IMG/VR virus record: IMGVR_UViG_3300050821_006345
Span: 32,001-96,000 of that record
Reading direction: 5' to 3' (one strand)
DNA length: 64,000 nucleotides
Source: a virus
Below the pieces are notes generated by a model. It saw nothing but the letters and a program-made list of their open reading frames with translations, ran no database searches and had not been told where the DNA came from. Position 1 is the first letter of the stretch. Every line of letters starts with the position of its first letter. The position numbers and the translations under genes were made by a program. Positions 13,349 to 59,838 of the stretch are shown here, piece after piece.

Positions 13349-15274
13349 ATGAAGTTCACCAAGAATTTTGCCAGCACAAACATTTTCGGCCACAAACCGA
13401 ACGGAGCCATCACGTTCCTCAATGCCAAAGGCCAGATGGTCGGCAAGCATCCTCCGACCGTCAATCCACCAGCACCCAATAGCGAGGACGTCGGCCCGCT
13501 GGTTCCGACCCTGCCGGTTGTTGACTGGACGTTCGCTTCAAACTACAAATGCTATCCGATTGACACGAAACCAGTTGATGGCGGAGTTGTGGTTCGCGTC
13601 GGTGGTTCAGTGGACGCCTGCCGTGGTCTGGTGTTCAAAGACAATCCTTCTGCGATTAACTACGGAAAGCAAATCTGCGACTACTGGGAGACGGGAACGC
13701 TGCCTCCTGCACCAGATGGAGTTGTTTCTGACGATGAAACGATTCGGAACTCAAGAACCGCGTTGTTAAATGCCGGAACATCTGCTGGCGTTCTTAAAAG
13801 CTGGATTGTCCGCCGAATCGGAAGCGGTGAAAAAGTGAACAGCTTTCAGGCCAGAAACGCAGCACACGCCAAAGAAAAATACGAGGCGTTCCACGGCAAA
13901 CCACTTCCGAAAGATTTAGAGGTCGTGCCACATTCAGAAGTCGTGGCCGAAAAGAACGATTACAAAGACTGGAAGACTGGATACGGTCTGCACAATTCAG
14001 AACAAGTTCTGAACGCCGGAACCAAGGAAGGCTTCAAGAAGGCACTCGACACCAGATCGGCTACAGGAGCCAAGAACGCCGCCTCCTCTGCCGTCCACTT
14101 CAAGAACGAGGCCAAGCGTCATTCATCGGGTCTGTTCGTCAAGGGCAAGAAGCCAGATTTGGAAAAGGCATCGAAAGCGGCGAACCTCGCAACCGGAGCC
14201 GCAGTAGTGGCTGATGCTTCTGCCCGCGAAGCTGACACTGCTCCTGCCTACGACCAAGCCATCATCGCCCACCAAGCGGCAGCCGACGCACACAAAGCCG
14301 CGCGGGGAGGCGTGAAGGGCGACCATCAATCACCGTCGAGAACCAAAGAGTCGGCGCACCTGAGGTCCATTGAAGACCTCAAGGGATTGAAGCAGACGAT
14401 TTCAAACTCGGCCATCTTAAACGCTGGAACAAGTGCTGGCGTTTATGAGGCATGGCAGACTCGTCGCGGAAATGTTTCACAAATCATCAAGGCCAGAGAC
14501 GACGCATCAAAGATGGAGGCATCGCCACAGCGGTTTCCGGCATATAATCGCTCGGTTGATGCGTGGAAGGCGACACAAAAGGCCGAGCAAACAGGAACGG
14601 CGGAAGACCACGGTGCGGCGGCACAAGCACACCACGAGGCTGCCCGACAGTTTGACGGGAGAAACAAATCACACGATGAGGCGTCTCTTGCTCACGAGGC
14701 CAAATTGAAAGAACTGAAGCAGGCCATCACCAACTCACGCATTTTGAACGGCGGGCCGGGCAGTGGCAGAAAACCGGGAGGCAGCCGTTGGTTTGACAAT
14801 CGTCATGGTAGTGGGCCAAATCCAAATCTTTTTGAGGTGAAGGACGGAGAGCAGAAAGGTGGTCGCGTTGAATACGGTGGGCCGAAAGATTATCACCACG
14901 ACCCCAACCACAGCGGCCAAGGCCGTCCAGTGCCACTAAAGTTTCTGGAAGATGGAGCGGCCAACGAGGGCCATCTACGCGAATTAAACCTTGGCCACGG
15001 GCCGACTCCAGAAGGCCTGTTGCGGCACATCAAGGAGAGTGACGACGCGATGTACTCATCGAAGACACCGGAGCAGTTCGCAGCACACAAGGCATCGCGC
15101 GATGCGTTTGAAGCGACGGATAAGCATGGTGTGTCGGAAGCCTCCCATGCGGCGCACGACTATGCTGCTTCGCTTCATGAAGCTCGCGGCAACCACGACC
15201 AAGCATCGGTTCATCGTGATTTCGCCAAGCTCCACATCCCCTATAACGTGGACAAATACGGTCGCCGAATCTAA
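13349..15274 (+). CDS. putative head-internal polyprotein with four tagged cassettes
   Basis: LLN-AGTSAGV, VLN-AGTKEG, ILN-AGTSAGV, ILN-GGPGSGR; His/Ala helical repeats; directly upstream of the F-like gene. Confidence 0.75.
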   Translation: MKFTKNFASTNIFGHKPNGAITFLNAKGQMVGKHPPTVNPPAPNSEDVGPLVPTLPVVDWTFASNYKCYPIDTKPVDGGVVVRVGGSVDACRGLVFKDNPSAINYGKQICDYWETGTLPPAPDGVVSDDETIRNSRTALLNAGTSAGVLKSWIVRRIGSGEKVNSFQARNAAHAKEKYEAFHGKPLPKDLEVVPHSEVVAEKNDYKDWKTGYGLHNSEQVLNAGTKEGFKKALDTRSATGAKNAASSAVHFKNEAKRHSSGLFVKGKKPDLEKASKAANLATGAAVVADASAREADTAPAYDQAIIAHQAAADAHKAARGGVKGDHQSPSRTKESAHLRSIEDLKGLKQTISNSAILNAGTSAGVYEAWQTRRGNVSQIIKARDDASKMEASPQRFPAYNRSVDAWKATQKAEQTGTAEDHGAAAQAHHEAARQFDGRNKSHDEASLAHEAKLKELKQAITNSRILNGGPGSGRKPGGSRWFDNRHGSGPNPNLFEVKDGEQKGGRVEYGGPKDYHHDPNHSGQGRPVPLKFLEDGAANEGHLRELNLGHGPTPEGLLRHIKESDDAMYSSKTPEQFAAHKASRDAFEATDKHGVSEASHAAHDYAASLHEARGNHDQASVHRDFAKLHIPYNVDKYGRRI

Positions 15275-15275
15275 C

Positions 15276-17021
15276 ATGAACCTGCGGCAGATATTCAACG
15301 CGGATGCTCCAGACGTTGTTCCAGAAACCAAAGACGCCAAGCACGAGCTTTCGCTTTTAGATAAAGCACTCCTTGCATTCGCTGCTGCCCTTGCCATTGA
15401 CCTTGCCTTCATTCGTGACCGCGTAGATTCGGCCAAAACATCGGAAGATTATCAGAAGATTCACGAGGAGCTTCCGAATCTGCTTGAAGAAGCGTTAAAG
15501 AAGAAAGCGGCGCAGAAAGCATTGGCTGATTCAATGGCGACCTTCTACCACAACGGCATGGTCGATGTGAATGACAAGCTGGAAGAAGCAGACCAAGCGG
15601 ACGCCGAGTTGATGGACGAGGTTCAGTCAGCTGGTAAAGTTCCGGGACGCATCTTATCCGAAGAGCTTCTAACCGACCACTCGCTAGTTAAGCAGGACAT
15701 CAACGACATTTTGGACCGCGCAAACTGGGCGGCGGCGGCAACCAAGGCATCCATTGTCGATGAATGGAAGGGAATTGATGCGGAGAATAAGCCGTCAATC
15801 GCCGCATATTTTGCGGAGGATGCTCTGGCCGAGAATCCGAACGTTTCTATTGCCTCGGACACTCAGCACAAGATGGCCGAAGGACTTGGAGAACAACGCG
15901 AGCTTAACGAAAACATAAAAGCATATCCATGTCAGGAATTTTATAGGGAAAGCCCGCGCGAAGTGTGGCGTAACTGGCCCGCCAGATTTTTGCGCGGCGG
16001 GGGAACGCTATACCCAGACGAAGATGGAAGCGCAGACTACGCAGAAGGCCGCATGATTGCTCCGGTCGGTGATTCTGTGTGGCTTCGCATCTCCCGCTTT
16101 GGCACGCCGTTCGCTCCTTTTGATTACCGAAGCGGCATGAATCTTCGCCCAATCGCACTGAGCCTTTCGTCTGAGCTTGGCGTTCTGAACGACTACAAAG
16201 AACCGCCGAAGCCAGTCACTGAATCCTTTAATCACAATGTCCAATTCTCTGCCGCCATTTCACCAGCGTTAAAAGAAGTTCTGCTTGGTTACTTGGGCGA
16301 TTCATTCTCCGATGCTTCGGGCGTCATTGCCAACTCAAAGCACAATCCAGACGTGCTGCTTAATTCAAAAGATTTACTTCCAGATGCGCTGGCCAGATGC
16401 AAGAAGTGTGGCGGAATAGCCAACCTAGCCAGAGAGCCGGAAATATCCATGGGCGCAGTTGCGTGTCCAAAGTGCAAAAGCCCGGTGACGCAGGCCGACC
16501 TAATGCAAAAAAATCCACGGACGGATTACTCAGCGTCCAAGGAAGTTTTACTCAACGGTGCGCCGATTGGAAACGATAACGCATCAAGAGACCACCATAC
16601 TGCCATGCGGTCTTGGACAATGCGCGGCATTGGAGAGAAGGCTGCATTGGTTGGAAACTGCGGAAACTATGCGGAAGCGTTACGCGAGGCAAAAGGCGGA
16701 GGACAAATCGTTCAGTTGCAGCAGACGCACCCAACAACCGAATGGCATCAAGCGTTGAAGCACAACGGGAAGTATTACGATGCGGCCACTCATTCTGGTG
16801 TGGAAGATCCGAAACAACTTGGATTCTTCAAGCACGTCAACAAATGCGAAGCAGACGTTAAGATTGCTCCAGAAAGAATTGTAAAAGAATCGGTAGCCAA
16901 CAGCCTTTCTTCCGTGTTCCTGCCGCCGGACAAATACGCACAGACCCTCAAGGAAATTGAGGTTGTGTGCAACAATCGGCCAAAAGAACCGCTCCCACCA
17001 GTCGGAGGACTGTTCAAATGA
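15276..17021 (+). CDS. Mu gpF-like minor head protein with C-terminal Zn-ribbon and papain-like cargo
   Basis: GRMIAPVGDSVW...FGTPFAPFDYRSGM core; CKKC..CPKC; GNCGNYAEAL..H..YYDA. Confidence 0.65.
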   Translation: MNLRQIFNADAPDVVPETKDAKHELSLLDKALLAFAAALAIDLAFIRDRVDSAKTSEDYQKIHEELPNLLEEALKKKAAQKALADSMATFYHNGMVDVNDKLEEADQADAELMDEVQSAGKVPGRILSEELLTDHSLVKQDINDILDRANWAAAATKASIVDEWKGIDAENKPSIAAYFAEDALAENPNVSIASDTQHKMAEGLGEQRELNENIKAYPCQEFYRESPREVWRNWPARFLRGGGTLYPDEDGSADYAEGRMIAPVGDSVWLRISRFGTPFAPFDYRSGMNLRPIALSLSSELGVLNDYKEPPKPVTESFNHNVQFSAAISPALKEVLLGYLGDSFSDASGVIANSKHNPDVLLNSKDLLPDALARCKKCGGIANLAREPEISMGAVACPKCKSPVTQADLMQKNPRTDYSASKEVLLNGAPIGNDNASRDHHTAMRSWTMRGIGEKAALVGNCGNYAEALREAKGGGQIVQLQQTHPTTEWHQALKHNGKYYDAATHSGVEDPKQLGFFKHVNKCEADVKIAPERIVKESVANSLSSVFLPPDKYAQTLKEIEVVCNNRPKEPLPPVGGLFK

Positions 17022-17143
17022 TCCGTCTCATTCAATCTTTAATCGCAGCAGGACTTGTTTTCATCTCCGGATGCCACGGCGTTCCAGCTTACGGTAAAGT
17101 CGCAGTTGAGCAAGCGGTCAAACAAGCTACTTTGAACAAGTAA
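17018..17143 (+). CDS. 41-aa lipoprotein (read by hand)
   Basis: MIRLIQSLIAAGLVFISG-C lipobox; ATGA-coupled. Confidence 0.55.
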   Translation: MIRLIQSLIAAGLVFISGCHGVPAYGKVAVEQAVKQATLNK

Positions 17144-17148
17144 ACATT

Positions 17149-17949
17149 ATGAGCAACCTGAACATTTTCAAGAACGCACTTGCCGAGCGCAAGGCCGAAC
17201 AGACGACCATCACCACGCCCAGCGGCTACCACTCGCTGCTCAACGCCATCAGGCACGAGGTGAAGATTGTTAACGGAGGGCCGGGAAGCGGTCGCAGGGA
17301 TGGATTTTCTTATCATTCAGAATATGGTTCTGGCTCTGTGCCGCATGAATCAGAATCCGATGCGTTATCATACCACCAAAAAAAATATCCAAATGCTTCA
17401 TTTGGTGACTGGGAGAACAATGGAGGCAATAGCGAGCGAAAATTGGTTTGGGAAAACAATAAAGATTCTGAAAACGATGATGGAAAAAAGGCCGTGGCTC
17501 AAATTGTAAGAAAATCGGCCAATGTTTCAAACTCCACCTACACCAACCCCGACGGCTCGTTCAAAATCGTGAACGGCAGCCAGATTGGCGCGGCGACCGC
17601 ACTTTTCATGGAAAAGGGCCACAGCGAGGAATCGGCCACAAGGATGGCAAAATCACTTCTGAACGCCGAAACCGACAACGTATGTCTGCCCGGCACTGCT
17701 AATGGCCTCGCTACGGCCTCCAGCAAGGCCGCTGATGCGTCAGAAGCAGCAGAACGCACCGGAACGGCCTCCGACCATTTTGCGGCCAAAAATGCCCACG
17801 AAGTCGCAGGAAACCATGCCGCACGGCTTGGCTGCACAGAAAAAGCTTCCCACCACGCTAAAAAGGCTTCTGAACACCAAGCCAAGGGAGTAGCGGCTTA
17901 TCCGAAGGGACAAACCGATAAGCAGAACGCTGGCTCACCGAAGGCTTGA
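17149..17949 (+). CDS. putative head-internal polyprotein
   Basis: IVN-GGPGSGR tag, several xxN(A/S/G) motifs, His-rich tail. Confidence 0.7.
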   Translation: MSNLNIFKNALAERKAEQTTITTPSGYHSLLNAIRHEVKIVNGGPGSGRRDGFSYHSEYGSGSVPHESESDALSYHQKKYPNASFGDWENNGGNSERKLVWENNKDSENDDGKKAVAQIVRKSANVSNSTYTNPDGSFKIVNGSQIGAATALFMEKGHSEESATRMAKSLLNAETDNVCLPGTANGLATASSKAADASEAAERTGTASDHFAAKNAHEVAGNHAARLGCTEKASHHAKKASEHQAKGVAAYPKGQTDKQNAGSPKA

Positions 17950-18058
17950 AGCTTTCTTCGTTCCATTCGCAGGCAATCACATGTTGCAGTAGCTGACGTC
18001 CATCGGAAATGGTGATCAAACGAATCTCGGAAGATTTAACTGTTAGCTTGGCCATCTT

Positions 18059-18613
18059 TTAAGATAGCACAGTCTTTGGCCGATATTTGTAAAAGTGTTT
18101 CATAAACAGCTTCTCGGACTCCAGTGGTGAAAGCGGAATGATTTTGTCTGGAAGCGGTGGATACTCCTCCTGCAATCTCCAAGGATGGTCGGTCTGCGTG
18201 CAAATGTCCCGCCGCTCGGTCATCAATGCAGTATTGTCTGCTCGTTTAACTTCTGGATGGAACACAGAATTTATTCCAAACACATCGGCAATCACCAGCC
18301 ACAACTTGTCCTCTGCCGCGCAATAATCAGGCATTGAAATCTTTAGCGGACGAACCATGTCGCCAAGAGCGTATTCTGTGGCGTCGTGCATCAATCCTTG
18401 GAATGTGGCTTGAGTGCAGATCTGGCTGACGATTACAGAATGTTGAGCGACAGAATAAAACTGTCGGCAATGACCACCAAATCTACAAATATTAGATAAT
18501 GCATGGGCGATGTCCTCGATGCAGATGTCTTCCGGCTGCGGGTCGAGCGGATGAAACTTCTTGCCGGTGAACGTGAGAAACCAATCTCCGATTAACTGCT
18601 TATCTTTATTCAT
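18059..18613 (-). CDS. HD-domain (YfbR/YfdR-like) nucleotide phosphohydrolase
   Basis: IAHALSNICRFGGH..FYSVAQHS..LMHDATE..GDMVRPLK..KRAD. Confidence 0.9.
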   Translation of the reverse strand: MNKDKQLIGDWFLTFTGKKFHPLDPQPEDICIEDIAHALSNICRFGGHCRQFYSVAQHSVIVSQICTQATFQGLMHDATEYALGDMVRPLKISMPDYCAAEDKLWLVIADVFGINSVFHPEVKRADNTALMTERRDICTQTDHPWRLQEEYPPLPDKIIPLSPLESEKLFMKHFYKYRPKTVLS

Positions 18614-18618
18614 ATTCG

Positions 18619-18897
18619 TTATTCTGGCCGTTGATGGTCTTCAGCAAAAAGCAAATAGGCCCGCGCATCCAAAAAATTGTCGCCGTGAAATACTCTGGCC
18701 GACCGCTGCGTCTTGAAATCCACCATCATAAGCTCAACCATCCAGCTTGGTAGCGGATGGTCAAGCCGGATGCCGTAATGCTGCTGAATCAATCCAGTCC
18801 ACGCAAGGCCAATGTTCTCGTGCGAGAGTTTTGGGTCGCCGTAAATCTTGCCGCGTTCTTTGATTGTGTCTGAAACGACATCGTTATTTTTTGGCAT
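18619..18897 (-). CDS. DUF6378-like all-alpha protein
   Basis: ERGKIYGDP..HENIGLAW..MMVDFK..R..DNFLDARAY. Confidence 0.7.
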   Translation of the reverse strand: MPKNNDVVSDTIKERGKIYGDPKLSHENIGLAWTGLIQQHYGIRLDHPLPSWMVELMMVDFKTQRSARVFHGDNFLDARAYLLFAEDHQRPE

Positions 18898-45211: not shown

Positions 45212-47791
45212 TTAAGCCTTGTGTGGCCGAATTTGCCAGTCCACTTCAGAATGCTGTGCCAGATGTTTAATCGGAATCTTAAAGCTTGTTAAATCACGGC
45301 CTTCGCCCCAGTAGCTCGCCGCGTGGCTCTTGTCCGGTGAAACAAAGATGCCTTCTGGATATTCTCCTGCCTTAATCTTTGAAATGACATCCGATGGCTG
45401 GCTGGTATAAACGCGCACCTGCTTGTCTCCGATACCCATCGCCTCATTCACCAAGTCCATCGTTTCCGGAGTTGCCTCGTCGTTTCCTTCAAACATCTCC
45501 TTTTTGCCGTCCTTGCTTAATAGCAGTCCGACTGTGTTTGGGTCGTTCTTGGCCGAAATATAAACCGGAACCGGCCAGACGCCGTCAGGATTGTCGTCAA
45601 ACAACGCCTGACTGGTTACGAGCCTTCTGGTTAAGTCTTTTTGATTGAATGGAATATCCCCCATCAGTTTGTGAACTTCGTCGTTCAGGTCATTGGCCAG
45701 TTTCAGAACGTGGTCTCCAGCTGGCTTGTTCTCGAAGTCGGCCAGAGTTTCAAGATGAATCTGGTCGTCACTTTTCCTCCCACGGGAGAATCTGGACTCT
45801 CGGTCAAGGTTCTCCTTCACGTCGTCCCACGTTATCGGATGCGGTGATGATTCGCCTTTCGGCAGGCTTCCTCCAACTTGACCCACCCGTCCTTCGTGGC
45901 CTTCAAACGAATTGAGAAGCCGTTTTTTAAGTGCGGCCTTTCTGGTTCGTGAGTTGGCGAGTTTTACAACTGGCTTCGGAAACTGGCCAGCAACCGGCTT
46001 GCTTAAATCACCGCCCTTGATCCACTGCTCAAACTGGCCGAAATCCAATTTTGTAACAGCACCGATTCTCTCATGTCCCCTTCCATCGGAGAACGCCCGC
46101 TTGTAGCAGTCGGTCGCCTGCTTCTCGTCTTGAAAGCCAATCATGCACTTTCTCTCGTCTGGATTTCCAGTCTCCGCGTCCACTTGATCGATGACAAACA
46201 CGGAAGCGGTGTCGCTTGGATTGGTGGATAAATAGCAGTCCAGCAAGTCTCCATCTTGGGTGCCTTTTTTCGTCCCCTTCACCCCGCCATAATCACTCGG
46301 CATGACCACCGTCCAAACCTTGCCGTCTTTGCCGATTCCAGAACGGACACTTCCGGCCAGTGACTCAATACTAATTCCGAGCGTTTTGTAGGTGGTGTGG
46401 GTTTGGCGATAATTTCCGGCCTTGGATTGTTTTGGCGTGGGAACGCGGCCAAGTCCTTTGTGCGGCAGGGCGTTGGTGATTTTTAATTCTGGCCTTTTGC
46501 CAACAATCACTTCTTCGTATGTTCCCGTTAAGCCGACGTTGACAGCCACAATATCGTCCACTGGAATAGACTTGGTGATTATATTTCCGCCGTATTGCTC
46601 TGCACCAGACTTGGTTGTTGCCCAGTTCTTTGTGGCCTTCTGCTTCTGCAATCCTTCCGACCGATACAGCGTCATTGAATCTCCAAAGTTGCTGCGAAGC
46701 TCATTTCTTGTTGGCGTGAAGCAGTCGTATAATTCAGATGCGGAAACCCGGCTGTTTCGGCCATCCATTATGTTGTCAACCGCCGTGTTTGTTCCCATGC
46801 CAACTCCGATCGCAGCCTCGGTGATTGCGTTGTAAACATCCCGATTTTTCATCAGGTCGTTTCTGGCCGTTAAAACAACCGAGGATGGGATTGCGCTTTT
46901 CCGGTCGGCAGGAGACTTTATATCCTCGATGGTCTTCGGCCTTGCCAAGTCGTAACGCAGCGAGTTGGCCTCGGCGTTCAGTGCGATAAATCTGGACGCC
47001 TCCGATGCTGTTAAGCCGCCCTTTTGAGCCAGCGGCATGATTTCGGATTTGATGGCGTTTAATCGGCCAATCATAGTCGGCCTGTCGGTGACGTGGCCTT
47101 TTAAGCCAGATCCGACCCCGCCGTTAGCCACCACAACCACCGGATTTGCCTTCCAGCGGCCTATTACGGCGTTCAGAAGCTCGAACTGCGGCTTGGGGGA
47201 CACCGTTTTCGGCAAATAAGCGTTTAACAGGCCGTGTAGCGTTGCCCGGATGGTCTTGGGCGAGGCTTTGGCCTTCAGCAGGGCGGAAGCGGTGTTTTTA
47301 ATGGCCAGAGGAAGCGGAATGGCGAAGTTTTTAACCTTCTCGTCCATGTTTACATGATAAACATCAGCCGTCTTGTCTCCGAGAAGTTTTCTGGCAGTCA
47401 GCCTATGATTTCCATCGGCGATGTATTGCTTGCCTCCTTTTTGAACCACCACCGGCTTGTCAAGCTGGTCGTCTGATGGCTCGGATGCCTTTCTTGAGTC
47501 ATCTCCGCGTTCAATGATGTCTTTTACTTTTGGCTCAAAGAACTCGTTGGTTCCGGTAAGATCGTCCAGATTGACGGTTTTCACTGTTTTTGGACCGCGC
47601 AGACGACGCCTTAATTCTTCCGTATCGTAGGGTGCCGCATGATCGCCGGATTTGAATATACTGTGCGTCCAGTTTTTCTCATCTGGAAGCCGTGGCAGTT
47701 TTTCAAGAGATGATAGCGCGCCAGCCTTTCGCACCTCCCACGCCTTCTTGACGCCCACACTTGTGCCTGCGTTGAGTAGCTTCCGCTTCAT
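45212..47791 (-). CDS. polyvalent protein: ParB-like, ART-like, InPase and second ART-like domains
   Basis: IADGNHRLTA; LYR..WATT..YEEV; AGNY..GSVRSG..YG..DGDLLDCY..DERKCMIGF; GIFVSPDKSHAASYW. Confidence 0.75.
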   Translation of the reverse strand: MKRKLLNAGTSVGVKKAWEVRKAGALSSLEKLPRLPDEKNWTHSIFKSGDHAAPYDTEELRRRLRGPKTVKTVNLDDLTGTNEFFEPKVKDIIERGDDSRKASEPSDDQLDKPVVVQKGGKQYIADGNHRLTARKLLGDKTADVYHVNMDEKVKNFAIPLPLAIKNTASALLKAKASPKTIRATLHGLLNAYLPKTVSPKPQFELLNAVIGRWKANPVVVVANGGVGSGLKGHVTDRPTMIGRLNAIKSEIMPLAQKGGLTASEASRFIALNAEANSLRYDLARPKTIEDIKSPADRKSAIPSSVVLTARNDLMKNRDVYNAITEAAIGVGMGTNTAVDNIMDGRNSRVSASELYDCFTPTRNELRSNFGDSMTLYRSEGLQKQKATKNWATTKSGAEQYGGNIITKSIPVDDIVAVNVGLTGTYEEVIVGKRPELKITNALPHKGLGRVPTPKQSKAGNYRQTHTTYKTLGISIESLAGSVRSGIGKDGKVWTVVMPSDYGGVKGTKKGTQDGDLLDCYLSTNPSDTASVFVIDQVDAETGNPDERKCMIGFQDEKQATDCYKRAFSDGRGHERIGAVTKLDFGQFEQWIKGGDLSKPVAGQFPKPVVKLANSRTRKAALKKRLLNSFEGHEGRVGQVGGSLPKGESSPHPITWDDVKENLDRESRFSRGRKSDDQIHLETLADFENKPAGDHVLKLANDLNDEVHKLMGDIPFNQKDLTRRLVTSQALFDDNPDGVWPVPVYISAKNDPNTVGLLLSKDGKKEMFEGNDEATPETMDLVNEAMGIGDKQVRVYTSQPSDVISKIKAGEYPEGIFVSPDKSHAASYWGEGRDLTSFKIPIKHLAQHSEVDWQIRPHKA

Positions 47792-53915: not shown

Positions 53916-53976
53916 GACGACACGATACCAGTATAACAAACTATTTCAAGTTAAATCTTCACATGAATATAACAGC

Positions 53977-54026: not shown

Positions 54027-54965
54027 TTACGGCCCTGTCGGATTCAAACGCACGGCGGCAGCACTGTTAGTAGTGTGTATGTCTTCCGACCAGTCAAATT
54101 TGGCAACCTCTGCCCTACCGTCCTCGCGGACATAGCTACCCGGCACCATGAAGTTGTTGATCAGGCGGAACGTCTTCATGAAGCTAGGGTCGCGGCGCGT
54201 TGGATTTTCCTTGCGTGCGAAGATCAGGACGCTGGTGTCGAGCAGGAAGTTCATCGATGCTGCGATGCCTTCGCTGGCCGAGTCGTAAACCATGTAGGAC
54301 ACGCGGGTGTCAGGGTTGCCCAAGAACAGTCCAGAGGCGGTGTCCGGGGTGATGTTCGGGATTGCATTACCACCGGCGGTCACGAAACGTGAACGAACCG
54401 TTGGGTGATTCTTGAAATACATGTAGGCTGTGGCACCGAACAGAACGCCAACGCCCATCAACGAGCCGTATTTGGCGATCTTGATGACCGACAGGATGGC
54501 GTTGTCGATGTCGGAAACTGGGTCGCCTGTTCCGGCGCGAGTCCAGTCAACCGATGAGCCGCCTCCGACCGCAACGAGAGCCGCGTCAATGACGCTCTTT
54601 TCGTGGGCGAGGCCGGCGACTTCGGCGATCAGCGTGGCACCTTCCTGAAGGATGTTCTCCAACAGGTCTCCTTCCAGCTGTTCAAGATTGTCAACTGGAA
54701 AGTCCAGCGCGTGGGGGACGCAGTTGTAGGTCTTGTCCGTCATGTTAAACGAAAGCTCCACGGCACGTCCGCCGAGGCCACGGATGGTCTGGGGGAGGTG
54801 GAAGCGGTTCTTTTCGTCGTATTGCTTGTAGCGGCCAACAGAGGTCGCCACCGGCACGGTTGGCGCGAGGAATTCGGCCACGGGCTGGATTGAGTCCTGC
54901 GCCGCGCCCTGCGCGTATTGCTTCAGCATCGGGCTGCTGGAAATTGATTCGAGTCTTGATCCCAT
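54027..54965 (-). CDS. major capsid protein
   Basis: 312 aa; AEFLAPTVPV..DPVSDID; position after scaffold and decoration genes; terminator follows. Confidence 0.85.
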   Translation of the reverse strand: MGSRLESISSSPMLKQYAQGAAQDSIQPVAEFLAPTVPVATSVGRYKQYDEKNRFHLPQTIRGLGGRAVELSFNMTDKTYNCVPHALDFPVDNLEQLEGDLLENILQEGATLIAEVAGLAHEKSVIDAALVAVGGGSSVDWTRAGTGDPVSDIDNAILSVIKIAKYGSLMGVGVLFGATAYMYFKNHPTVRSRFVTAGGNAIPNITPDTASGLFLGNPDTRVSYMVYDSASEGIAASMNFLLDTSVLIFARKENPTRRDPSFMKTFRLINNFMVPGSYVREDGRAEVAKFDWSEDIHTTNSAAAVRLNPTGP

Positions 54966-55012: not shown

Positions 55013-55450
55013 TTATTTCTTATACGGCCCAATGGGGCGGATAAGCAGGTATTGGCCTGCGACACCGGCCTCTTCGGTGATTCCGAATACCCAGTTGCCG
55101 GAGGAGGCAGGAACGGCCTGGCCTGATGCATCTGATTGAACCTCGATGCCGCCATTGATGGAGCCGGTTGAAATCACCCTGATTTGCTGGTCGCTTGAAA
55201 GCGGCAGGCAAGTAACGATTTGAAGGTCGTTCGTTGATTCGTTGGTGCTGGCCGAGTCGCCGACATTGGTGCCGCCTTCGAGCAACACATAGTGGGGCTG
55301 TGCGCCAGCGCCGGTGGTGTTCACCGTGGTCGGAGACGTGGATGCGTTGAGTGAAACAAGCGTTCCCTCAAGTCCCGTCAGGTTCGCCGACGGAAGGCGA
55401 ACGATGCGTCCCTTGGTGGTGTTGGATTGAATGAATGAGCTGGCTGCCAT
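55013..55450 (-). CDS. capsid decoration/cement protein
   Basis: VQSDASGQAV..FGITEEAGVAGQY pattern; precedes the capsid gene. Confidence 0.7.
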   Translation of the reverse strand: MAASSFIQSNTTKGRIVRLPSANLTGLEGTLVSLNASTSPTTVNTTGAGAQPHYVLLEGGTNVGDSASTNESTNDLQIVTCLPLSSDQQIRVISTGSINGGIEVQSDASGQAVPASSGNWVFGITEEAGVAGQYLLIRPIGPYKK

Positions 55451-55485
55451 AATTTTGTTTTAGTTATGTTTGGTTGGAGATTGGT

Positions 55486-56091
55486 TTAGTTGACGATCTG
55501 CTGGCCGGCGACCATTTCAGCGCGGGCGTTCAGAAACGCCTGATTCCAGCCCATGCCCTTGTTGGTGGCCTGAATTTCGCGGGCGCGGTTGGAAACCTTC
55601 ACCGAGAATTCCTCGGTTTCGCCGCTGTTCGCGTTCAAAATGGGTTCAGGCTGTGCGGCCTTGCTGGAGTTGTGCAGCGGAGCCTTGCGGGTCGGCTTCG
55701 GGTCAGCCACTGGCGCAGGTGCAGCCGCATTGGTCAGCTTGATGCCCTTCAGGAAGGCAAGACCGACTTCGCGGTTGTTCATCAGCATCGCCTTCACTCC
55801 GGCTTCGTCGCTGATTACATCCTTGAAACTCGCAACGTCGTTGTTCACGAGTGACTCAAGCATGGACTTGTTGGAGTTGGTCAATTTTTCATTGGCCGCA
55901 GTCAACTGCTCAACCTGCTTGGTCGAATTCATCAAATTTTGTTCAGCCGAAATAAGCTGACCATCGGTCAACTCTTTGTAGGCGACCATGCTGGAAGTAA
56001 ACTCGTTTACGGAATTCGCCAAAATTTCGTCTGAAGAACCGGCAGGAACACCCATCAAGGTTTCCAGTGTTTGCTTGTAATCAAGAGCCAT
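55486..56091 (-). CDS. head scaffolding protein (Mu gpZ-like)
   Basis: LMGVPAGSSDE start, coiled coil, C-terminal helix pair; about 10 xxN motifs. Confidence 0.7.
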   Translation of the reverse strand: MALDYKQTLETLMGVPAGSSDEILANSVNEFTSSMVAYKELTDGQLISAEQNLMNSTKQVEQLTAANEKLTNSNKSMLESLVNNDVASFKDVISDEAGVKAMLMNNREVGLAFLKGIKLTNAAAPAPVADPKPTRKAPLHNSSKAAQPEPILNANSGETEEFSVKVSNRAREIQATNKGMGWNQAFLNARAEMVAGQQIVN

Positions 56092-56461: not shown

Positions 56462-57423
56462 ATGAAGCAATACACGATTAATGGCAAAACACAGTCACTC
56501 GAAGAATGGTCTGCGGAAACAGGATTAGGAACATTCGCTTTGGCGTATCGAATTAAAAATTGGCCAGAAGAAGATTGGATGCTCCAGCAAAAGAGCCAGT
56601 TTAAGATTGGAAGCAACAATGCTTTAATTGGATTGAGGGTTGGTAAATTAACAATTGAATCTTGCGTTGAGCCTCCCAACAATGTGAATCGTGGAGAGGT
56701 ATTTGGACGTGTCTTTGCGACTGCGGAAACAAGAAGGACATTCATGGTTACAGCCTTACAAAGAAAGTTCCAGTGAGGAGTTGCGGATGCCTTCGGTCAT
56801 ACGACAGGGCTCTTGCCAAAAAGAAATCTTATTCATCTGAATACAAAATCGGCCAGAAGTTTAATGCTTTCACTGTTACAGGATGCGTCGAGCCATCCAA
56901 CGGCAACAACGGTGGCGGTGTGTGGACTTGTGTTTGCGATTGCGGGAAAACAATGGCTAGAACCGGAAGGCAGCTAATTTACGGCAAGGGACATCGCGGA
57001 TGCACCCGGCCAGATTTGTATCGAAGAAGCAATGCTGACGACAAAAGACAGTTAACCATTAGCAATCAATACACACAGCACAAAAAGCGGTGCAAATTGA
57101 AGGGAATTGAACATCTTGATTTTACAGACTGGGAATCTGTTGTTTTCAGGCCGTGCCATTATTGCGGACTGATTGACGAGCGGTCTTACACCAATAAATA
57201 CATACAATCTTACGGCGAAGAAATCATCAATCTCTATAAGGTTAAGATAAACGGTGTGGACAGGCTTGATTCATCCATTGGATACACGCTTTCAAATTGC
57301 GTTCCGTGCTGCTTTTTCTGCAATACCGCAAAATATGCACACGAAGAAAATTACTTCCTGTCTAGGATAAAGCAGATTTATGAATTCAGAAGACTTGGGG
57401 AATTTACACCGACAGCGCCTTGA
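56462..57423 (+). pseudogene. HNH endonuclease split by a frameshift near 56695
   Basis: WTCLCDCGN..RSCGC lies in the second frame; CHYCG..NGVDRLDSSIGYTLSNCVPCC. Confidence 0.8.
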
Positions 57424-59134
57424 CGGGTAGGTTGGGCTTGTTGGTCAGCGCCACAGCCGAGAGTTCCTGTGGGATTAACCTGTCCGGCGTGCCGTCTTGA
57501 AGGCACATCGCCCTAGTAAAAACGGGACTCACAAAGCGGTATGTGCCGGAAGAAACAGCCCTGTCTCCTTCAGGAGTCAGCTTGGCGTGTCCCCACAATC
57601 CTGAAGCATCGTTGCGAAGGGCATCAATCCAGCCAGCGGCAGCCGTGTTCGGCGTGGTGTCTGAAGAATGGTCGAAATCCAAAATTATCATGTGGTTGGG
57701 ATCAACCGCACGTTGTGAATTGAATGCTGCAACCATCTGTGAGTGGCTGGAAGGAGAAAGAACTTGTGTAACGCCTGCGTTGGCATTCTCGTATTCACCA
57801 ACAGGGCTGAGATGCATCCACCCAGAAGGATCTGCCTTGAAAGCACTGTTTGACAGACGCTCTCCTTTTATCTCCACCGCCTTGCCCACAATCCTTTGCG
57901 CGTTGCTCAATTTTGCAGACCCGCTCCAGTCCGCTCCCGATTCCCATTGAAGGGTTTTCGGTGTCTGCACCTTGATGGTCTTGCTCTCTGGGTGATACGA
58001 GACAGTTGGAGGCGTGCGGTCTTTTCCTTCGGCACTGCGGTCGAGCTTTTGGTCAAATTGGGATGTCCGGTTGCCGCTGTGGTCTTCCGAAACGATTGAA
58101 AGATGGTCGGTGGCCGCGTCGTGGTTGACGTGGATTTTGCCCTCCGGCACATTCATTGAACCGTTGCCTTTGCGCGTAATCCACTCTTTATTCACGCCTT
58201 CGCTGGTTCCGCTGTTCACAATGGCCTTCTGCTCATCCGCCTTTTTCAGGTCGGATTTCTGCTCTTCCACCGTCGCCTGCTTTGGGTCGGTCACTGGCTT
58301 GGCCAGAGGAACGTCCTTGTTCATTATCTCGGTGTCTGGAGATGTAATGGGCGCAGGCATTGATGGTGCTTGAGGTGCTGGCATCGCATCATCGTTTAGC
58401 ATAGCATCGTCTGAGGCGTCGATGGGAGACGTAGAGTCGTTCTTTAATTTGGCAGGATTCGGCGCATTGTTGGCCATTACAGGGCTTTTCTTGAACCGCT
58501 CGATGGTCGACGCAAACGCTGGCTTGGCCGCGTTTAAGATTGAAGCTGGAATGAAGTTGGTTATGCGTCCCTGATGGTCGTAGGTTATCTGGCCGATTTT
58601 CGTGGACGAATTTCTGAATGAAGGGTCGCCAGCCTCCTCCGAGTGAAGCCGCGCCCGGCCCATGTGGTAGGCAATGCGTCCCATTGCGTTTGTTTTGCTT
58701 CCAAGCATGGAGTTCATTTCATCGCGATAATGAGTTGCGGCGGCCTTGTGTGCGTATTGTGCGGCAACGTGGTCTTTTGGTTTGCCGGTTTTGAAAGCCT
58801 TTTTAGTCAGTGTTTCTGCATTTTGTCCGGTGGCAAACGCGGACGATTCTTTATGCCTGCCAGAACCCGGCCCTCCGTTCAGCATAACGTCTTCACATTC
58901 TCCGCTGTTTCCAATGGAGGGATACTTCTTGGCCGCTTTTGCGCGGACTATTGCCTTCTCTTCTGGTGTGCCGAATTCAGACACGCGTGAAAGAGCTGCT
59001 CGTGCGTGACTTGGATTTTCGATTGGGTAGCGTCCGCCAGAAAGCGCGAAGTTTTCAGGCTTAATCTTTGAGCGCGCCTTGGCCGTCAGCTTGCCGTTCA
59101 GCATCGCCCACTTGTTGACAAGGTCGGTGAACAT
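57404..59134 (-). CDS. Mu gpI-like prohead protease with long N-terminal tagged extension
   Basis: LDFDHS..AAGWI..GLWG..YRFVSPVF..VALTNKP. Confidence 0.85.
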   Translation of the reverse strand: MFTDLVNKWAMLNGKLTAKARSKIKPENFALSGGRYPIENPSHARAALSRVSEFGTPEEKAIVRAKAAKKYPSIGNSGECEDVMLNGGPGSGRHKESSAFATGQNAETLTKKAFKTGKPKDHVAAQYAHKAAATHYRDEMNSMLGSKTNAMGRIAYHMGRARLHSEEAGDPSFRNSSTKIGQITYDHQGRITNFIPASILNAAKPAFASTIERFKKSPVMANNAPNPAKLKNDSTSPIDASDDAMLNDDAMPAPQAPSMPAPITSPDTEIMNKDVPLAKPVTDPKQATVEEQKSDLKKADEQKAIVNSGTSEGVNKEWITRKGNGSMNVPEGKIHVNHDAATDHLSIVSEDHSGNRTSQFDQKLDRSAEGKDRTPPTVSYHPESKTIKVQTPKTLQWESGADWSGSAKLSNAQRIVGKAVEIKGERLSNSAFKADPSGWMHLSPVGEYENANAGVTQVLSPSSHSQMVAAFNSQRAVDPNHMIILDFDHSSDTTPNTAAAGWIDALRNDASGLWGHAKLTPEGDRAVSSGTYRFVSPVFTRAMCLQDGTPDRLIPQELSAVALTNKPNLPVKALSV

Positions 59135-59139
59135 TGGAG

Positions 59140-59838
59140 TTATTGCACTGAAGGTGCTTGGGTCGTTACCACAAGTTCCGCAGCCGGAGTGGTCAAATCT
59201 TGGTCGCCGTAGATGATCGTTGCTGCTGGCTGGTTGTCTTGGCCGGAAGGTGTGTTGGCATCATCGTCGTCATCGTCAAGGTCGATGTTCATAATCGCAT
59301 CATCGTCGCCCATTTCGCTGTTGGCCAGTTTCACCCTCATGGCTGAAAGTGCCGAGTGGTAGTTGCCGCGAATGGAAGGATAAACCGAGTTCTTCACCTT
59401 TTTCTTGGCCAGCGCGTCGCCATTCTTGGCATCAATCTGCTTCTGAATGAAGGCCGGAAGCGTCTTCTTCGCGTTGGTGATGGTCTTTCCGTCCGGCCCG
59501 ACCGCAGGAGTTCCAGACTTTGGATTGGCCGTATCATGGCCACATTGACACGGAGATTGGCCGCAGGTGCATGGAGTCTTGCCGTCCATCATCTCAAGGT
59601 CGGCGTTCTGCTTCGCCACTGTATTTTCACCCGCCTCCTTGGTGGGCGGGTTCTCAATGGTGGGCTGGGGCACGTTTGGAGCGGTGTTCGGGCCGCTGGC
59701 GTTGCGGAGCTTCGCTGCGCCGTAGACGGTCGATCCGTTTAGGGCGGCGACCTGCGCGGTCACCTTGGGTGAAAGTCCGTTCTTGAGTTTGCGCTTTTCG
59801 TCGCGCAGGCCATTGTTGTTTCGGAAAGCAATTTTCAT
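59140..59838 (-). CDS. low-complexity head-associated protein
   Basis: Many (L/I/V)xN motifs, LPAFIQK, acidic tail; upstream of the protease. Confidence 0.65.
   Translation of the reverse strand: MKIAFRNNNGLRDEKRKLKNGLSPKVTAQVAALNGSTVYGAAKLRNASGPNTAPNVPQPTIENPPTKEAGENTVAKQNADLEMMDGKTPCTCGQSPCQCGHDTANPKSGTPAVGPDGKTITNAKKTLPAFIQKQIDAKNGDALAKKKVKNSVYPSIRGNYHSALSAMRVKLANSEMGDDDAIMNIDLDDDDDDANTPSGQDNQPAATIIYGDQDLTTPAAELVVTTQAPSVQ

What the first reader, a model, noticed from the sequence alone, without database searches (positions are those of the whole stretch)
13349..59838. Candidate Asn-specific head-maturation code: (I/L/V/M/F)-x-N|(A/S/G) in seven head proteins
Seen: the motif is dense in the scaffold (LAN-S, LMN-S, LTN-S, LTN-A, LHN-S, ILN-A, FLN-A, ends in IVN), the protease pro-region (MLN-G twice, IGN-S, FRN-S, ILN-A, IVN-S, LSN-A, and LSN-S just before the catalytic domain), 59140..59838, the F-like protein, 13349.., 17149.. 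and 45212.., often as doublets at domain borders (IRNSRTALLNA, ISNSAILNA, ITNSRILNG). Established: T4 gp21 cuts scaffold and internal proteins after (I/L)-x-E. Inference: this Mu gpI-type protease cuts after Asn and releases separate cargo domains from polyproteins inside the capsid.
Basis: partly seen in the sequence, partly recalled or inferred. Interest (0 to 1): 0.85.

Follow-up and report, generated by a model that had tools for sequence, protein, structure and literature searches.

The report
Asn-ending cut-site code in phage head
An uncultured soil phage marks its capsid scaffold, both edges of its capsid protease and the joints of several packaged multi-domain proteins with a short hydrophobic-x-asparagine signal that is most likely where its own head protease cuts, a rule shared by a very large, unstudied branch of Mu-type phage proteases, though no cut has been measured.

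Summary
All 48 listed [ILVMF]-x-N-[ASG] sites exist. By a composition-preserving shuffle, six of the seven named proteins are the top six of 189 ORFs on the 132-kb contig. An unbiased scan finds Asn to be the only residue enriched two positions after a hydrophobic one (z=7.0).

The signal belongs to the protease family, not just this phage. Among the 150 best relatives of the catalytic domain, 127 of 130 fused protease-scaffold proteins carry P-L-S/T/A-N at the protease/scaffold junction. Twelve split forms, like this phage's protease, end at that point. In 86 of 114 relatives a second h-x-N lies a few residues before the catalytic core.

Homology-defined domains (InPase, a phrog_16160 domain, the catalytic core) are bracketed by sites. 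All seven proteins also have a site within about 30 residues of the start.

Best reading (about 0.65): a clan-SH Ser/His prohead protease that cuts after Asn, trims itself, fragments the scaffold and separates cargo modules.

Not supported: the doublet claim (p=0.40) and the Pfam "F-like" label. Cleavage itself is untested. E. coli Mu instead shows L-S/T-A. I found no published cleavage rule for Mu-type proteases. This scan noted the same code before in a related genome (e1-5997607).

The parts
57404..59134 (-). Prohead protease, 576 aa. It has a long N-terminal cargo-like pro-region (aa 1-429) with 8 h-x-N-[ASG] sites, followed by the catalytic domain.
   Evidence: PF10123 Mu-like_Pro at aa 459-573. 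phrog_328 head maturation protease at aa 433-574. Sites.
57407..57847 (-). Catalytic domain (aa 430-576), with no site inside it. It ends ...LTNKPNLPVKALSV*, at the point where fused relatives carry PLSN|R.
   Evidence: His and Ser invariant in alignments A1 and A2. AF2 model pLDDT 86.4. VZV protease Z 9.1 and T4 gp21 Z 8.7. Junction statistics. Translation checked.
57845..57856 (-). LSN|S: predicted N-terminal self-processing site, 9 residues before the SGW core motif.
   Evidence: In 86 of 114 relatives an h-x-N lies within 25 aa upstream of the DGW motif, and in 64 of those it is 6-8 aa upstream.
58919..59095 (-). Domain at aa 14-72 of the pro-region. It is bracketed by MLN|G (N13) and IGN|S (N76).
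   Evidence: phrog_16160 match at aa 14-72. 49-52% identity to annotated hypothetical proteins of three Streptomyces phages over aa 16-74. Sites.
55486..56091 (-). Scaffold protein, 201 aa, with 7 h-x-N-[ASG] sites plus the conserved N-R columns (MNNRE, VSNRAREIQ). Its C-terminus is ...QIVN.
   Evidence: 36% identical to the L001 scaffold and alignable to the C-terminal scaffold halves of fused relatives. Enrichment p<=0.0005.
59140..59838 (-). 232-aa protein of unknown family directly upstream of the protease, with 5 sites, the first at aa 18-21.
   Evidence: (p=0.0015). No Pfam or PHROG match.
13349..15274 (+). 641-aa modular protein with 9 sites. The modules start with GTS tags (three) or a GGPGSGR tag (one).
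   Evidence: (p<=0.0005). No family match.
15276..17021 (+). 581-aa protein with 5 sites, including IFN|A at aa 6-9.
   Evidence: Weak enrichment (p=0.035). No Pfam match. No homologue found. Atlas structural leads to Phage_Mu_F-bearing clusters have TM of only 0.23-0.38.
17149..17949 (+). 266-aa protein with 6 sites, an N-terminal FKN|A at aa 7-10 and a GGPGSGR tag at 17275-17295.
   Evidence: (p<=0.0005).
45212..47791 (-). 859-aa polyvalent-type protein with 8 sites. It starts MKRKLLN|AGTSVGVKKAW.
   Evidence: (p=0.0025).
46016..46432 (-). InPase domain (aa 454-592), bracketed by ITN|A (N440) and LAN|S (N613), with no site inside.
   Evidence: PF18823, E 9.8e-39. Sites. Coordinates checked.
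58181..58213 (-). GTS tag (SGTSEGVNKEW) directly after IVN. Other copies lie at 13772-13804, 14423-14455 and 47738-47770, with a degenerate one at 14015-14047.
   Evidence: All 4 strict copies in this genome, 10 of 10 in the 150 relatives and 3 of 3 in the related loci are preceded by h-x-N within 3 aa.
58856..58876 (-). GGPGSGR tag directly after MLN. Other copies lie at 14750-14770 and 17275-17295. A GGVGSGL variant lies at 47102-47122.
   Evidence: 4 of 4 in this genome and 3 of 3 in the relatives are preceded by h-x-N.
54027..54965 (-). Major capsid protein, 312 aa. It has one internal IDNA and no N-terminal site, so it is predicted not to be trimmed.
   Evidence: phrog_1005.. 55-70% identity to 11 viral loci.
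56773..57423 (+). HNH/endonuclease VII-like gene on the opposite strand. It lies exactly between the protease and scaffold genes, which are fused or adjacent in relatives.
   Evidence: phrog_1035, E 8.3e-15. Gene order in L001-L008.

Best explanation
The window holds the head module of an uncultured 132-kb phage. Its Mu-I-type prohead protease is a Ser/His enzyme with the herpesvirus assemblin / T4 gp21 fold. It most likely recognises a hydrophobic residue at P3 and asparagine at P1, and cuts after the Asn.

In this phage P1' is mostly Ser, Ala or Gly. In most of the family it is Arg.

Inferred sequence of events:
1. The proteins carrying the signal are co-assembled into the procapsid core.
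2. The protease frees its own catalytic domain at LSN|S. The gene already ends where relatives have their C-terminal site.
3. It cuts the scaffold into short pieces that can leave the shell.
4. It removes 7-26-residue N-terminal leaders from the internal proteins.
5. It separates the modules of the multi-domain (polyvalent) proteins. Many modules then begin with a conserved GTSxGVxKxW or GGPGSGR peptide.

Shown here: the motif, its enrichment, its placement at domain borders and at both edges of the catalytic domain, and its conservation across the protease family.

Inferred only: the cleavage itself, its register, the capsid location of the + strand proteins, and any role of the tags.
For: Enrichment in this phage:
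- Six of the seven named proteins are ranks 1-6 of 189 ORFs.
- Asn is the only residue enriched after [ILVMF]-x (z=7.0, 82 observed, 43 expected). It is not enriched in the other ORFs.

The protease:
- PF10123 match.
- Invariant DxDH His and S-P Ser.
- Model pLDDT 86.4.
- VZV assemblin Z 9.1 (rmsd 2.8, 105 aligned) and T4 gp21 Z 8.7 (rmsd 3.4, 120 aligned).

Family-wide junction. The profile search found 12,309 proteins at E<=1e-3, and the best 150 were examined. Of these, 142 had the TNxPN anchor and 8 were dropped.
- 127 of 130 fused forms have Asn at the aligned position (PLSN 104, PLTN 13, PIAN 5, PLAN 4, PISN 1), followed by unconserved sequence.
- P1' there is R 84, S 26, A 6.
- All 12 split forms stop at that position (PISR, PISK, PLTK and similar).
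- This phage's protease and L001's also stop there.

Upstream site: 86 of 114 relatives have h-x-N within 25 aa before the DGW core, 64 of them at 6-8 aa (for example MNTLLLN|RDGFQMPADGW).

Non-catalytic parts of relatives:
- C-terminal parts: Asn z=23 (573 observed, 260 expected), no other residue above z=1.7.
- N-terminal extensions: Asn z=12 (140 observed, 60 expected); the next residue there is Arg at z=3.8.

Conserved PLHN[SR] and [IV]xNRAxEI islands sit in otherwise variable scaffold linkers.

Independent relatives:
- L001 head and cargo proteins give Asn z=6.0.
- Among 148 ORFs of 11 related loci, the top-ranked are scaffolds, protease-scaffold fusions and neighbouring cargo proteins.

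Placement:
- 7 of 7 named proteins have a site in the first ~30 aa, against 12 of 182 other ORFs.
- InPase (aa 454-592) is bracketed by N440 and N613.
- The phrog_16160 domain (aa 14-72) is bracketed by N13 and N76.
- The catalytic core is preceded by N429.
- No site lies inside any of these domains.

Tags: the GTS and GGPGSG tags always follow h-x-N (24 of 24 over three data sets). The QPCG tag follows it in 9 of 13 cases.

Other deposited Mu-like phages also have Asn at the junction:
- Shewanella MuM16-2: PALN|R.
- Akkermansia phage: PLVN|R.
- Campylobacter CAM-P21: LIAN|K.
- A Helicobacter pullorum prophage: VKAN|S.
- A faecal contig: TALN|Q.

Register: P3 hydrophobic with P1 specific is the rule of the same protease clan. 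T4 gp21 uses L/I-X-E and phiKZ uses S/A-X-E (passages read in PMC9026906). Herpesvirus V/L-x-A|S is recalled, not checked.

Control: in phage Mu the same kind of scan singles out gpI/Z among 51 proteins, with L-[ST]-A 8 observed against 0.64 expected.
Against: - No proteomic, N-terminal or biochemical datum exists for this phage or for any member of the Asn clade. No cultured phage in the 50,697-record collection is closer than 36% to the PLSN-type protease.
- Relatives share ancestry, so the family z-scores are inflated by conserved scaffold columns.
- The register is ambiguous by one residue. Split forms end in R, K, V, T or S rather than N. Mu-clade proteins share A-L-S followed by a variable residue, which would also fit a cut after Ser.
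- Doublets are at chance level.
- In L001, Glu is also enriched after h-x (z=3.9).
- Only 5 of 13 h-x-N positions of the scaffold align exactly to Asn in L001.
- Single-protein scans of the deposited phages did not put Asn on top, because the hydrophobic residue there is at P2.
- The capsid location of the three + strand proteins rests only on the shared motif and tags.
Confidence: 0.65

Rival explanations
1. The hydrophobic-x-Asn element, with the following GTS / GGPGSG / QPCG peptides, is a non-cleaved signal. It would be a docking or capsid-targeting module, or a linker N-cap, that brings cargo and scaffold to the protease, scaffold or shell interior. The multi-domain proteins would then stay intact in the virion.
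For: - The tags follow the Asn rather than precede it, so they would stay on the product. This differs from T4's removed CTS leaders (PMC9026906 passages).
- Some polyvalent proteins are packaged unprocessed, for example N4 vRNAP as described in PMC5512222 (passages read).
- No cleavage data exist.
Against: - Only 8 of 48 sites are tag-linked.
- The signal sits at both edges of the catalytic domain and exactly where split genes end. That pattern is expected of processing sites, not of docking peptides.
- The scaffold is saturated with it (7 in 201 aa), as are the scaffolds that T4 gp21 is known to cleave.
Confidence: 0.15
2. Cleavage occurs but not as proposed. Either the protease cuts one bond earlier (hydrophobic-x | Asn, for example L-S|N-R). 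Or the Asn itself drives protease-independent backbone scission through a succinimide, as in nodavirus, picornavirus and reovirus capsid maturation at Asn-Ala, Asn-Ser and Asn-Pro (recalled, not checked here).
For: - The Mu-clade proteins share A-L-S followed by a variable residue: LSA, LSE, LSG, LSS.
- Split forms end P-I-S-(R/K) and not in Asn.
- In this phage P1' is S, A or G. These are the residues that most favour Asn cyclisation (general chemistry, recalled).
Against: - Family-wide, P1' is Arg (84 of 130 at the junction, 353 of 723 elsewhere). Arg does not favour succinimide formation.
- The Asn is the invariant residue while P2 varies freely in this phage.
- The clan rule places the specificity residue at P1.
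- The signal co-occurs with an intact Ser/His protease.
Confidence: 0.12
3. The pattern has no function. It would be a by-product of Asn-rich, low-complexity or repeated segments and of picking the motif after looking at the proteins.
For: - Motif and protein set were selected post hoc.
- Repeated tags contribute 8 sites.
- An Asn-rich tail-fibre-like ORF (38264-38839) also has 5 sites (p=0.02).
Against: - Shuffles keep each protein's composition and still give p<=0.0025 for six proteins.
- The unbiased 20-residue scan picks only Asn.
- The same signal recurs in independent relatives and at fixed positions around the catalytic domain in 127 of 130 and 86 of 114 proteins.
Confidence: 0.03

Closest known systems
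T4 gp21 prohead protease with its L/I-X-E sites and the capsid-targeting leaders of the internal proteins; phiKZ gp175 and SPN3US gp245 (S/A-X-E, A-X-E)
   Same: - Same fold class (T4 gp21 Z 8.7).
- A three-residue code with the specificity residue at P1.
- A scaffold saturated with sites.
- Short N-terminal leaders ending in the motif on internal proteins.
- Self-trimming of the protease.
- Multiple sites within propeptides.
Sources: passages read in PMC9026906, PMC5694885 and PMC10052503.
   Different: - P1 is Asn, not Glu.
- The enzyme belongs to the Mu-I family (PF10123), not to the T4/phiKZ families.
- The capsid protein has no propeptide site.
- Many sites are internal joints of multi-domain proteins and are followed by conserved retained peptides (GTS, GGPGSG).
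- Nothing has been measured.
Phage Mu gpI protease / gpZ scaffold (nested genes) and Mu-like phages such as JBD25/JBD30 and RS138
   Same: - Same Pfam family and catalytic motifs.
- Same head-gene set: Portal_Mu and a Mu-type capsid protein.
- In most relatives the scaffold is the C-terminal half of the protease gene, as in Mu.
   Different: - Here the protease and scaffold are separate genes with an HNH endonuclease gene between them.
- The protease carries a 429-aa cargo-like N-terminal extension.
- Mu has KKLTA and repeated ALSA where this clade has PLSN and h-x-N.
- JBD25, RS138 and PeaS-P1 also lack the junction Asn.
- No cleavage rule is stated for Mu-type enzymes in the passages I saw: PMC11445458 says only that gp37 cleaves the scaffold, and PMC2628397 gives no rule.
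Herpesvirus assemblin (UL26-type) with release and maturation sites
   Same: - Best structural matches: VZV Z 9.1, PRV 8.3, HCMV 7.5.
- The protease is fused to the scaffold and frees itself at a site right after the catalytic domain.
   Different: - Herpes sites are (V/L)-x-Ala|Ser (recalled).
- Sequence identity is only 13-20%.
- There is no cargo polyprotein system.
Polyvalent proteins of phages and conjugative elements (Iyer et al. 2017, PMC5512222)
   Same: - 45212-47791 carries the InPase domain defined there (PF18823), in a multi-domain head-module protein.
- L001 has a 2,212-aa counterpart.
   Different: - In the passages I read, that paper proposes processing by zincin-like metallopeptidase domains within the proteins.
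- The word 'linker' does not occur in its main text, and a head-protease Asn code did not appear in the 12 of 27 passages shown.
- Its supplements were not seen.

Membership tests
Mu-like prophage protein I protease (Pfam PF10123) | Match to the family HMM above the curated cut-off | tested here: met
   55.7 bits against a 25.2 cut-off, aa 459-573, profile positions 24-135 of 330. phrog_328 head maturation protease, E 3.8e-20.
Mu-like prophage protein I protease (Pfam PF10123) | Scaffold (gpZ-like) encoded as the C-terminal part of the same gene | tested here: not met
   The protease ORF ends right after the catalytic domain. The scaffold is a separate gene 1.3 kb away, with an HNH gene between them. 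12 of 142 relatives are split in the same way.
Clan SH prohead/assemblin serine proteases (herpesvirus assemblin, T4 gp21, HK97 gp4) | Conserved catalytic His and Ser | tested here: met
   The H of D-x-D-H and the S of S-P are invariant in 8 and in 49 aligned sequences. That these are the catalytic residues is inferred by analogy.
Clan SH prohead/assemblin serine proteases (herpesvirus assemblin, T4 gp21, HK97 gp4) | Assemblin-like fold | tested here: met
   AF2 model pLDDT 86.4, pTM 0.81. VIA-align gives 1vzv Z 9.1 / rmsd 2.8 / 105 aligned and 5jbl_A Z 8.7 / 3.4 / 120. Unrelated folds score Z 3.9 or less. Foldseek E-values were only 2e-3 or weaker.
T4-type head processing system (protease code plus capsid-targeting leaders) | Short N-terminal leaders that end in the protease motif on internal head proteins | tested here: met
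   As a sequence pattern only: 7 of 7 named proteins against 12 of 182 others have a site within the first ~30 aa.
T4-type head processing system (protease code plus capsid-targeting leaders) | Cleavage C-terminal to Glu (L/I-X-E) | tested here: not met
   Glu is not enriched after h-x in the seven proteins (z=0.47). Asn is (z=7.0).
T4-type head processing system (protease code plus capsid-targeting leaders) | Demonstrated protease-dependent cleavage and packaging | not testable with these tools
   This needs virions or expression. No cultured close relative exists in the phage collection.
Polyvalent proteins (Iyer et al. 2017) | Several unrelated effector or enzyme domains in one phage-encoded polypeptide, in a virion-gene context | tested here: inconclusive
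   Only one named domain (InPase) was found in the 859-aa protein. The other segments have no family match. The context is the head and tail module.
Phage Mu F / SPP1 gp7 minor head protein (PF04233), for 15276-17021 | Match to the family HMM | tested here: not met
   No match in the whole genome at E<=1, nor in the protein at E<=5. Atlas structural rows with Phage_Mu_F clusters have TM 0.23-0.38, which are leads only.
Asn-driven autoproteolysis (nodavirus, picornavirus, intein type) | Protease-independent scission at Asn within a fixed structural context | not testable with these tools
   This was considered because P1' is S, A or G here. The family-wide P1' of Arg argues against it.

The most novel reading that the evidence does not exclude
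Asparagine specificity is the common, possibly ancestral, rule of a very large branch of Mu-I-type prohead proteases. That branch spans thousands of clusters and includes the cultured Shewanella and Campylobacter phages sampled here, as well as the deposited Akkermansia phage record and the Helicobacter pullorum prophage assembly. P1 would have switched to Ala in the E. coli Mu lineage. If so, the virion cargo of uncultured phages could be read from sequence alone: any protein with an N-terminal h-x-N leader or h-x-N joints. The GTSxGxxKxW, GGPGSG and QPCG peptides that always follow the Asn would then be portable signals that stay on the released cargo, for example for packing against DNA or for ejection.
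Probability: 0.4. Interest if true: 0.78.

Novelty: new variant of a known kind. Interest (0 to 1): 0.62.

Why it matters
Head-maturation proteases decide which proteins end up inside a phage capsid, and in what form. Their cutting rules are known for only a few lineages: Glu for T4 and phiKZ, Ala for herpesviruses.

A sequence-readable Asn rule for the Mu-I family would do three things:
- It would give the first substrate rule for that family, which the profile search puts at 12,309 representative clusters at E<=1e-3.
- It would let injected cargo (anti-defence enzymes, polyvalent proteins) be predicted in uncultured phages.
- It would offer a protease/tag pair of orthogonal specificity for loading foreign proteins into capsids.

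It is directly testable in phages that are already cultured.

Tried and rejected
Tried, with no useful result:
- Megablast of the head module against 50,697 phage records gave no match.
- tblastn of the protease gave only 7 distant hits.
- The word-indexed homologue search of the catalytic region gave 2 relatives.
- The same search for the 581-aa protein gave none.
- PDB sequence searches of the protease found nothing. For the capsid protein they found one weak hit, 3bjq.
- Foldseek alone gave no match at E<=0.001. The VIA second look was needed.

Literature. I made nine searches. Seven looked for an Asn-specific or Mu-type cleavage rule: (zero papers). One search found the polyvalent-proteins paper. 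One search looked for Grimaud's Mu head-assembly work and returned nothing relevant. None of these gave a cleavage rule for Mu-type proteases or an Asn-specific phage protease. That holds only for the library searched. Supplements are closed, so those of PMC5512222 and PMC10052503 were not seen.

What I saw of each paper (passages from 'find' only):
- PMC5512222.
- PMC10052503. Its single 'asparagine' is a deamidation setting.
- PMC11445458.
- PMC3185693.
- PMC3012670.
- PMC5694885.
- PMC9026906.
- PMC2628397.
- PMC12991175 was seen only as a search listing.

Recalled and not verified:
- Grimaud's 1996 report that the Mu portal gpH is trimmed at its C-terminus. One search places an EAALSA|ED motif at aa 426-433 of 512 in the Mu portal, which would fit, but this is only a lead.
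- Herpesvirus (V/L)-x-A|S.

Rejected or weakened:
- Doublets as a feature (p=0.40).
- A scaffold C-terminus ending in h-x-N as a family trait (7 of 127).
- Exact positional conservation of sites between this scaffold and L001's (5 of 13).
- A simple [ILVMFA]-x-Z scan as a P1 detector in single deposited proteins.
- K/R at P4 or P5 is only modestly raised (20 of 48, against about 24% expected).

Not run:
- Complex prediction, because enzyme-substrate pairs are a poor use of it.
- A second structure job.

Limits of method:
- ORFs of the genome and loci were called with a crude longest-ORF script. Some wrong-strand ORFs in GC-rich loci entered. L003 and L004 are duplicates of one sequence, as are L009 and L010.
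- In one search, 8 of 150 relatives without the TNxP[NR][LIMF] anchor were dropped.
- In one search, 36 of 150 without a recognisable DGW motif were dropped.

Full report
WHAT THE WINDOW IS

The window is bases 32001-96000 of a single 132,191-bp virus contig (CheckV estimate 78% complete, no N, 51% G+C). No record in the phage collection matches it at the DNA level.

The minus strand between about 19 and 64 kb carries virion genes:
- a major capsid protein (54027-54965, phrog_1005);
- a small phrog_673-like protein (55013-55450);
- a 201-aa scaffold (55486-56091);
- a 576-aa protease (57404-59134; PF10123 at aa 459-573, phrog_328);
- a 232-aa unknown protein (59140-59838);
- an 859-aa protein with an InPase domain (45212-47791; PF18823, E 9.8e-39).

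The Mu-type portal lies outside the window at genome 110515-112047. Three adjacent + strand ORFs (13349-15274, 15276-17021, 17149-17949) have no family match.

THE OBSERVATION

- The seven proteins hold 48 [ILVMF]-x-N-[ASG] sites in 3,356 aa. The other 182 ORFs hold 130 in 37,347 aa.
- With 2,000 composition-preserving shuffles per protein, six of the seven are ranks 1-6 of 189 ORFs (observed 5-9, expected 0.9-2.4, p<=0.0025). The 581-aa ORF is weaker (p=0.035).
- The motif was chosen by eye, so I also ran a scan with no prior choice of residue. Among all 20 residues two positions after a hydrophobic one, Asn alone stands out in the seven proteins (z=7.0, 82 observed, 43 expected; next is D at 2.2). 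It is not among the top residues elsewhere in the genome.
- After h-x-N, Ala (20 observed, 9.1 expected) and Ser (20 observed, 6.2 expected) are raised. Gly is barely raised (8 observed, 6.2 expected).
- Eight of the 48 sites belong to repeated tags. Without them the excess is still about 3.5-fold.
- The claim that sites 'often' form doublets does not survive. There are 10 close pairs against 9.0 expected (p=0.40).

PLACEMENT

- All seven proteins have a site within about 30 residues of the start, for example MKRKLLN|AGTS, MNLRQIFN|AD, MSNLNIFKN|AL. Only 12 of 182 other ORFs do.
- Three domains defined by homology alone are bracketed by sites and contain none. InPase (aa 454-592) lies between N440 and N613. 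A phrog_16160 domain (aa 14-72 of the protease pro-region), 49-52% identical to hypothetical proteins annotated in three Streptomyces phages, lies between N13 and N76. The catalytic core is preceded by LSN|S at N429.
- Two conserved peptides, GTSxGVxKxW (4 strict copies plus one degenerate) and GGPGSGR (3 copies plus a GGVGSGL variant), start directly after an Asn site in unrelated proteins.

THE PROTEASE

- Aligned with relatives, the catalytic region keeps an invariant D-x-D-H and S-P.
- An AlphaFold model built on 49 sequences (pLDDT 86.4) is most like herpesvirus assemblins (VZV Z 9.1, rmsd 2.8, 105 residues) and T4 gp21 (Z 8.7, rmsd 3.4, 120 residues). Unrelated folds score Z 3.9 or less. 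Foldseek's own E-values were weak.
- So it is a clan-SH Ser/His prohead protease of the Mu-I family.

THE FAMILY EVIDENCE, WHICH CARRIES THE ARGUMENT

Eleven viral-contig loci encode capsid proteins 55-70% identical to this one.

The closest, L001, shows the same system. Its scaffold has sites. Two large proteins upstream of the protease and a 2,212-aa InPase protein are punctuated by h-x-N followed by GTS or QPCGDSHI peptides. Asn is again the top residue (z=6.0), though Glu is also raised (z=3.9).

In the more distant loci the protease and scaffold are one gene, as in Mu, and the residue after Asn is Arg: PLSN|R at the protease/scaffold junction, PLHN|R in a Pro/Ala-rich linker, and IRN|RAAEIQ near the end.

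A profile of the catalytic domain found 12,309 proteins at E<=1e-3 among 1.84 billion representatives. I examined the best 150.
- Of 142 with the TNxPN anchor, 130 continue past the domain. 127 of those have Asn at the aligned junction (PLSN 104, PLTN 13, PIAN 5, PLAN 4, PISN 1), followed by unconserved sequence.
- P1' there is R 84, S 26, A 6, T 4.
- The 12 that do not continue all stop at that very position. So do this phage's protease (...KALSV*) and L001's (...PISR*).
- On the other side, 86 of 114 have h-x-N just before the DGW core motif, 64 of them 6-8 residues before it. Often this is the whole N-terminus, as in MNTLLLN|RDGFQMPADGW.
- In the non-catalytic parts, Asn is by far the most enriched residue after h-x. 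In the C-terminal parts z=23 (573 observed, 260 expected), with no other residue above z=1.7. In the N-terminal extensions z=12 (140 observed, 60 expected), with Arg next at z=3.8. These z-values are inflated by shared ancestry, but the conservation is itself the point.
- Across 148 ORFs of the related loci, the proteins most enriched for h-x-N-[RSAG] are scaffolds, protease-scaffold fusions and adjacent cargo-like proteins.
- The GTS and GGPGSG tags are preceded by h-x-N in 24 of 24 cases over three data sets. QPCG is preceded by it in 9 of 13.

A conserved four-residue island at both borders of a protease domain, at the point where split genes end, and repeated through its scaffold, is the signature of self-processing and substrate sites.

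HOW FAR THE RULE REACHES

Deposited Mu-like phages were sampled.
- Five of nine have Asn at the junction: Shewanella MuM16-2 (PALN|R, plus IALN|R and VALN|R in the scaffold), Akkermansia phage (PLVN|R), Campylobacter CAM-P21 (LIAN|K), a Helicobacter pullorum prophage (VKAN|S) and a faecal contig (TALN|Q, with four more [AK]LN).
- E. coli Mu (KKLTA|L), JBD25 (ALSE|R), RS138 and PeaS-P1 do not.
- In Mu, L-[ST]-A occurs 8 times in gpI/Z against 0.64 expected. This is the only one of 51 proteins so enriched, and one of the 8 contains the catalytic Ser. The extended AALSA also occurs once near the C-terminus of the portal.
With so few clades it is a lead, not a test.

MECHANISM PROPOSED

By analogy with T4 gp21 (L/I-X-E, scaffold fragmentation, 10-residue leaders on internal proteins, self-trimming) and phiKZ/SPN3US (passages in PMC9026906, PMC5694885 and PMC10052503), the enzyme reads a hydrophobic P3 and Asn at P1. 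After procapsid assembly it would:
- free its own catalytic domain;
- cut the scaffold into short pieces;
- remove the short leaders;
- separate the modules of the multi-domain proteins.

Shown: the motif, its statistics, its placement and its family-wide conservation. Inferred: that bonds are cut, that the cut follows the Asn, that the + strand proteins are capsid cargo, and what the retained tags do.

RIVALS

- A non-cleaved docking or linker signal (0.15). This is favoured by the tags lying after the Asn and by known unprocessed polyvalent proteins (PMC5512222 passages). It fits poorly with the sites at both domain borders and at the split-gene ends.
- A different register or Asn autocleavage (0.12). 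The split forms end in R or K, not N. Mu-clade proteins share A-L-S plus a variable residue. S, A and G after Asn favour succinimide chemistry. However, Arg dominates family-wide and the clan rule puts specificity at P1.
- Chance or composition (0.03), which is disfavoured by the shuffles and by the relatives.

WHAT IS KNOWN AND WHAT IS NEW

Prohead-protease codes with targeting leaders are textbook for T4 and for giant phages. Polyvalent head proteins with InPase are described (PMC5512222). The gpI/gpZ arrangement is known.

I found no stated substrate rule for Mu-type proteases and no Asn-specific phage head protease in nine full-text searches. Supplements and subscription papers were not searchable.

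The finding is therefore a new variant of a known kind. This report agrees with it and adds the family-wide junction statistics and the Mu contrast.

VERDICT

Observation confirmed. Interpretation partly supported. Confidence in Asn-directed cleavage by the phage's own protease is about 0.65. Interest is 0.62.

Noticed in passing
window 56773-57423 (+), 52743-53939 (-), 48415-49410 (+); genome 112048-113073 (L012:16048-17073, -): The head module is peppered with homing-endonuclease-like genes. An HNH/EndoVII-like ORF sits exactly between the protease and scaffold genes, which are fused or adjacent in relatives. An HNH enzyme with repeated HTH modules lies next to the capsid gene. A GIY-YIG/NUMOD3 enzyme is also present. 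Another EndoVII-like gene lies next to the portal. The protease/scaffold split may have arisen by such an insertion.
   Followed up: partly
window 49382-50365 (+): An RNA ligase-like gene (PHA02142 OB-fold plus RNA_ligase; phrog_968, E 9.6e-35) lies next to the GIY-YIG endonuclease, inside the virion gene region.
   Followed up: no
genome G000:C1:1-60 (outside the window): The contig begins with a tandem array of ~15-nt units (…CCAAGTTCGAC…). No terminal direct repeat was found by exact match of the first 20-200 bases.
   Followed up: no
L001 (IMG/VR contig, locus coordinates 5332-7617, 7621-8841, 11964-18602, 18618-19556): A third conserved peptide, (Q/K)PCGxSxIxxGxxCH(V/I)G, follows the Asn site about ten times in L001's cargo proteins and in three of the 150 protease relatives. 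It is absent from this window's genome. It looks like a small Cys/His knuckle used as a module header.
   Followed up: partly
phage Mu, L022:14554-16092 (portal H) and 18056-19141 (I/Z): Mu's protease/scaffold gene carries 8 L-[ST]-A motifs (0.64 expected), and the portal has one EAALSA|ED at aa 426-433 of 512. This would fit the C-terminal trimming of the Mu portal that I recall from the 1990s literature but could not check.
   Followed up: partly
window 38264-38839 (-) and 19983-21113 (-): Two Asn/Thr-rich secreted-looking proteins with N-terminal hydrophobic leaders and T-N-rich repeats, like tail fibres or decoration proteins, also contain 5 motif hits each. For 38264-38839 this is largely explained by its 13% Asn content (p=0.02); 19983-21113 is not among the 25 most enriched ORFs in that test.
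   Followed up: no
genome 110515-112047 (L012:14515-16047, -), portal: The Mu-type portal has an h-x-N site (KIIN|ALEK) 24 residues before its C-terminus. L003's portal has LFN|G 7 residues before its end. Other relatives' portals do not.
   Followed up: partly
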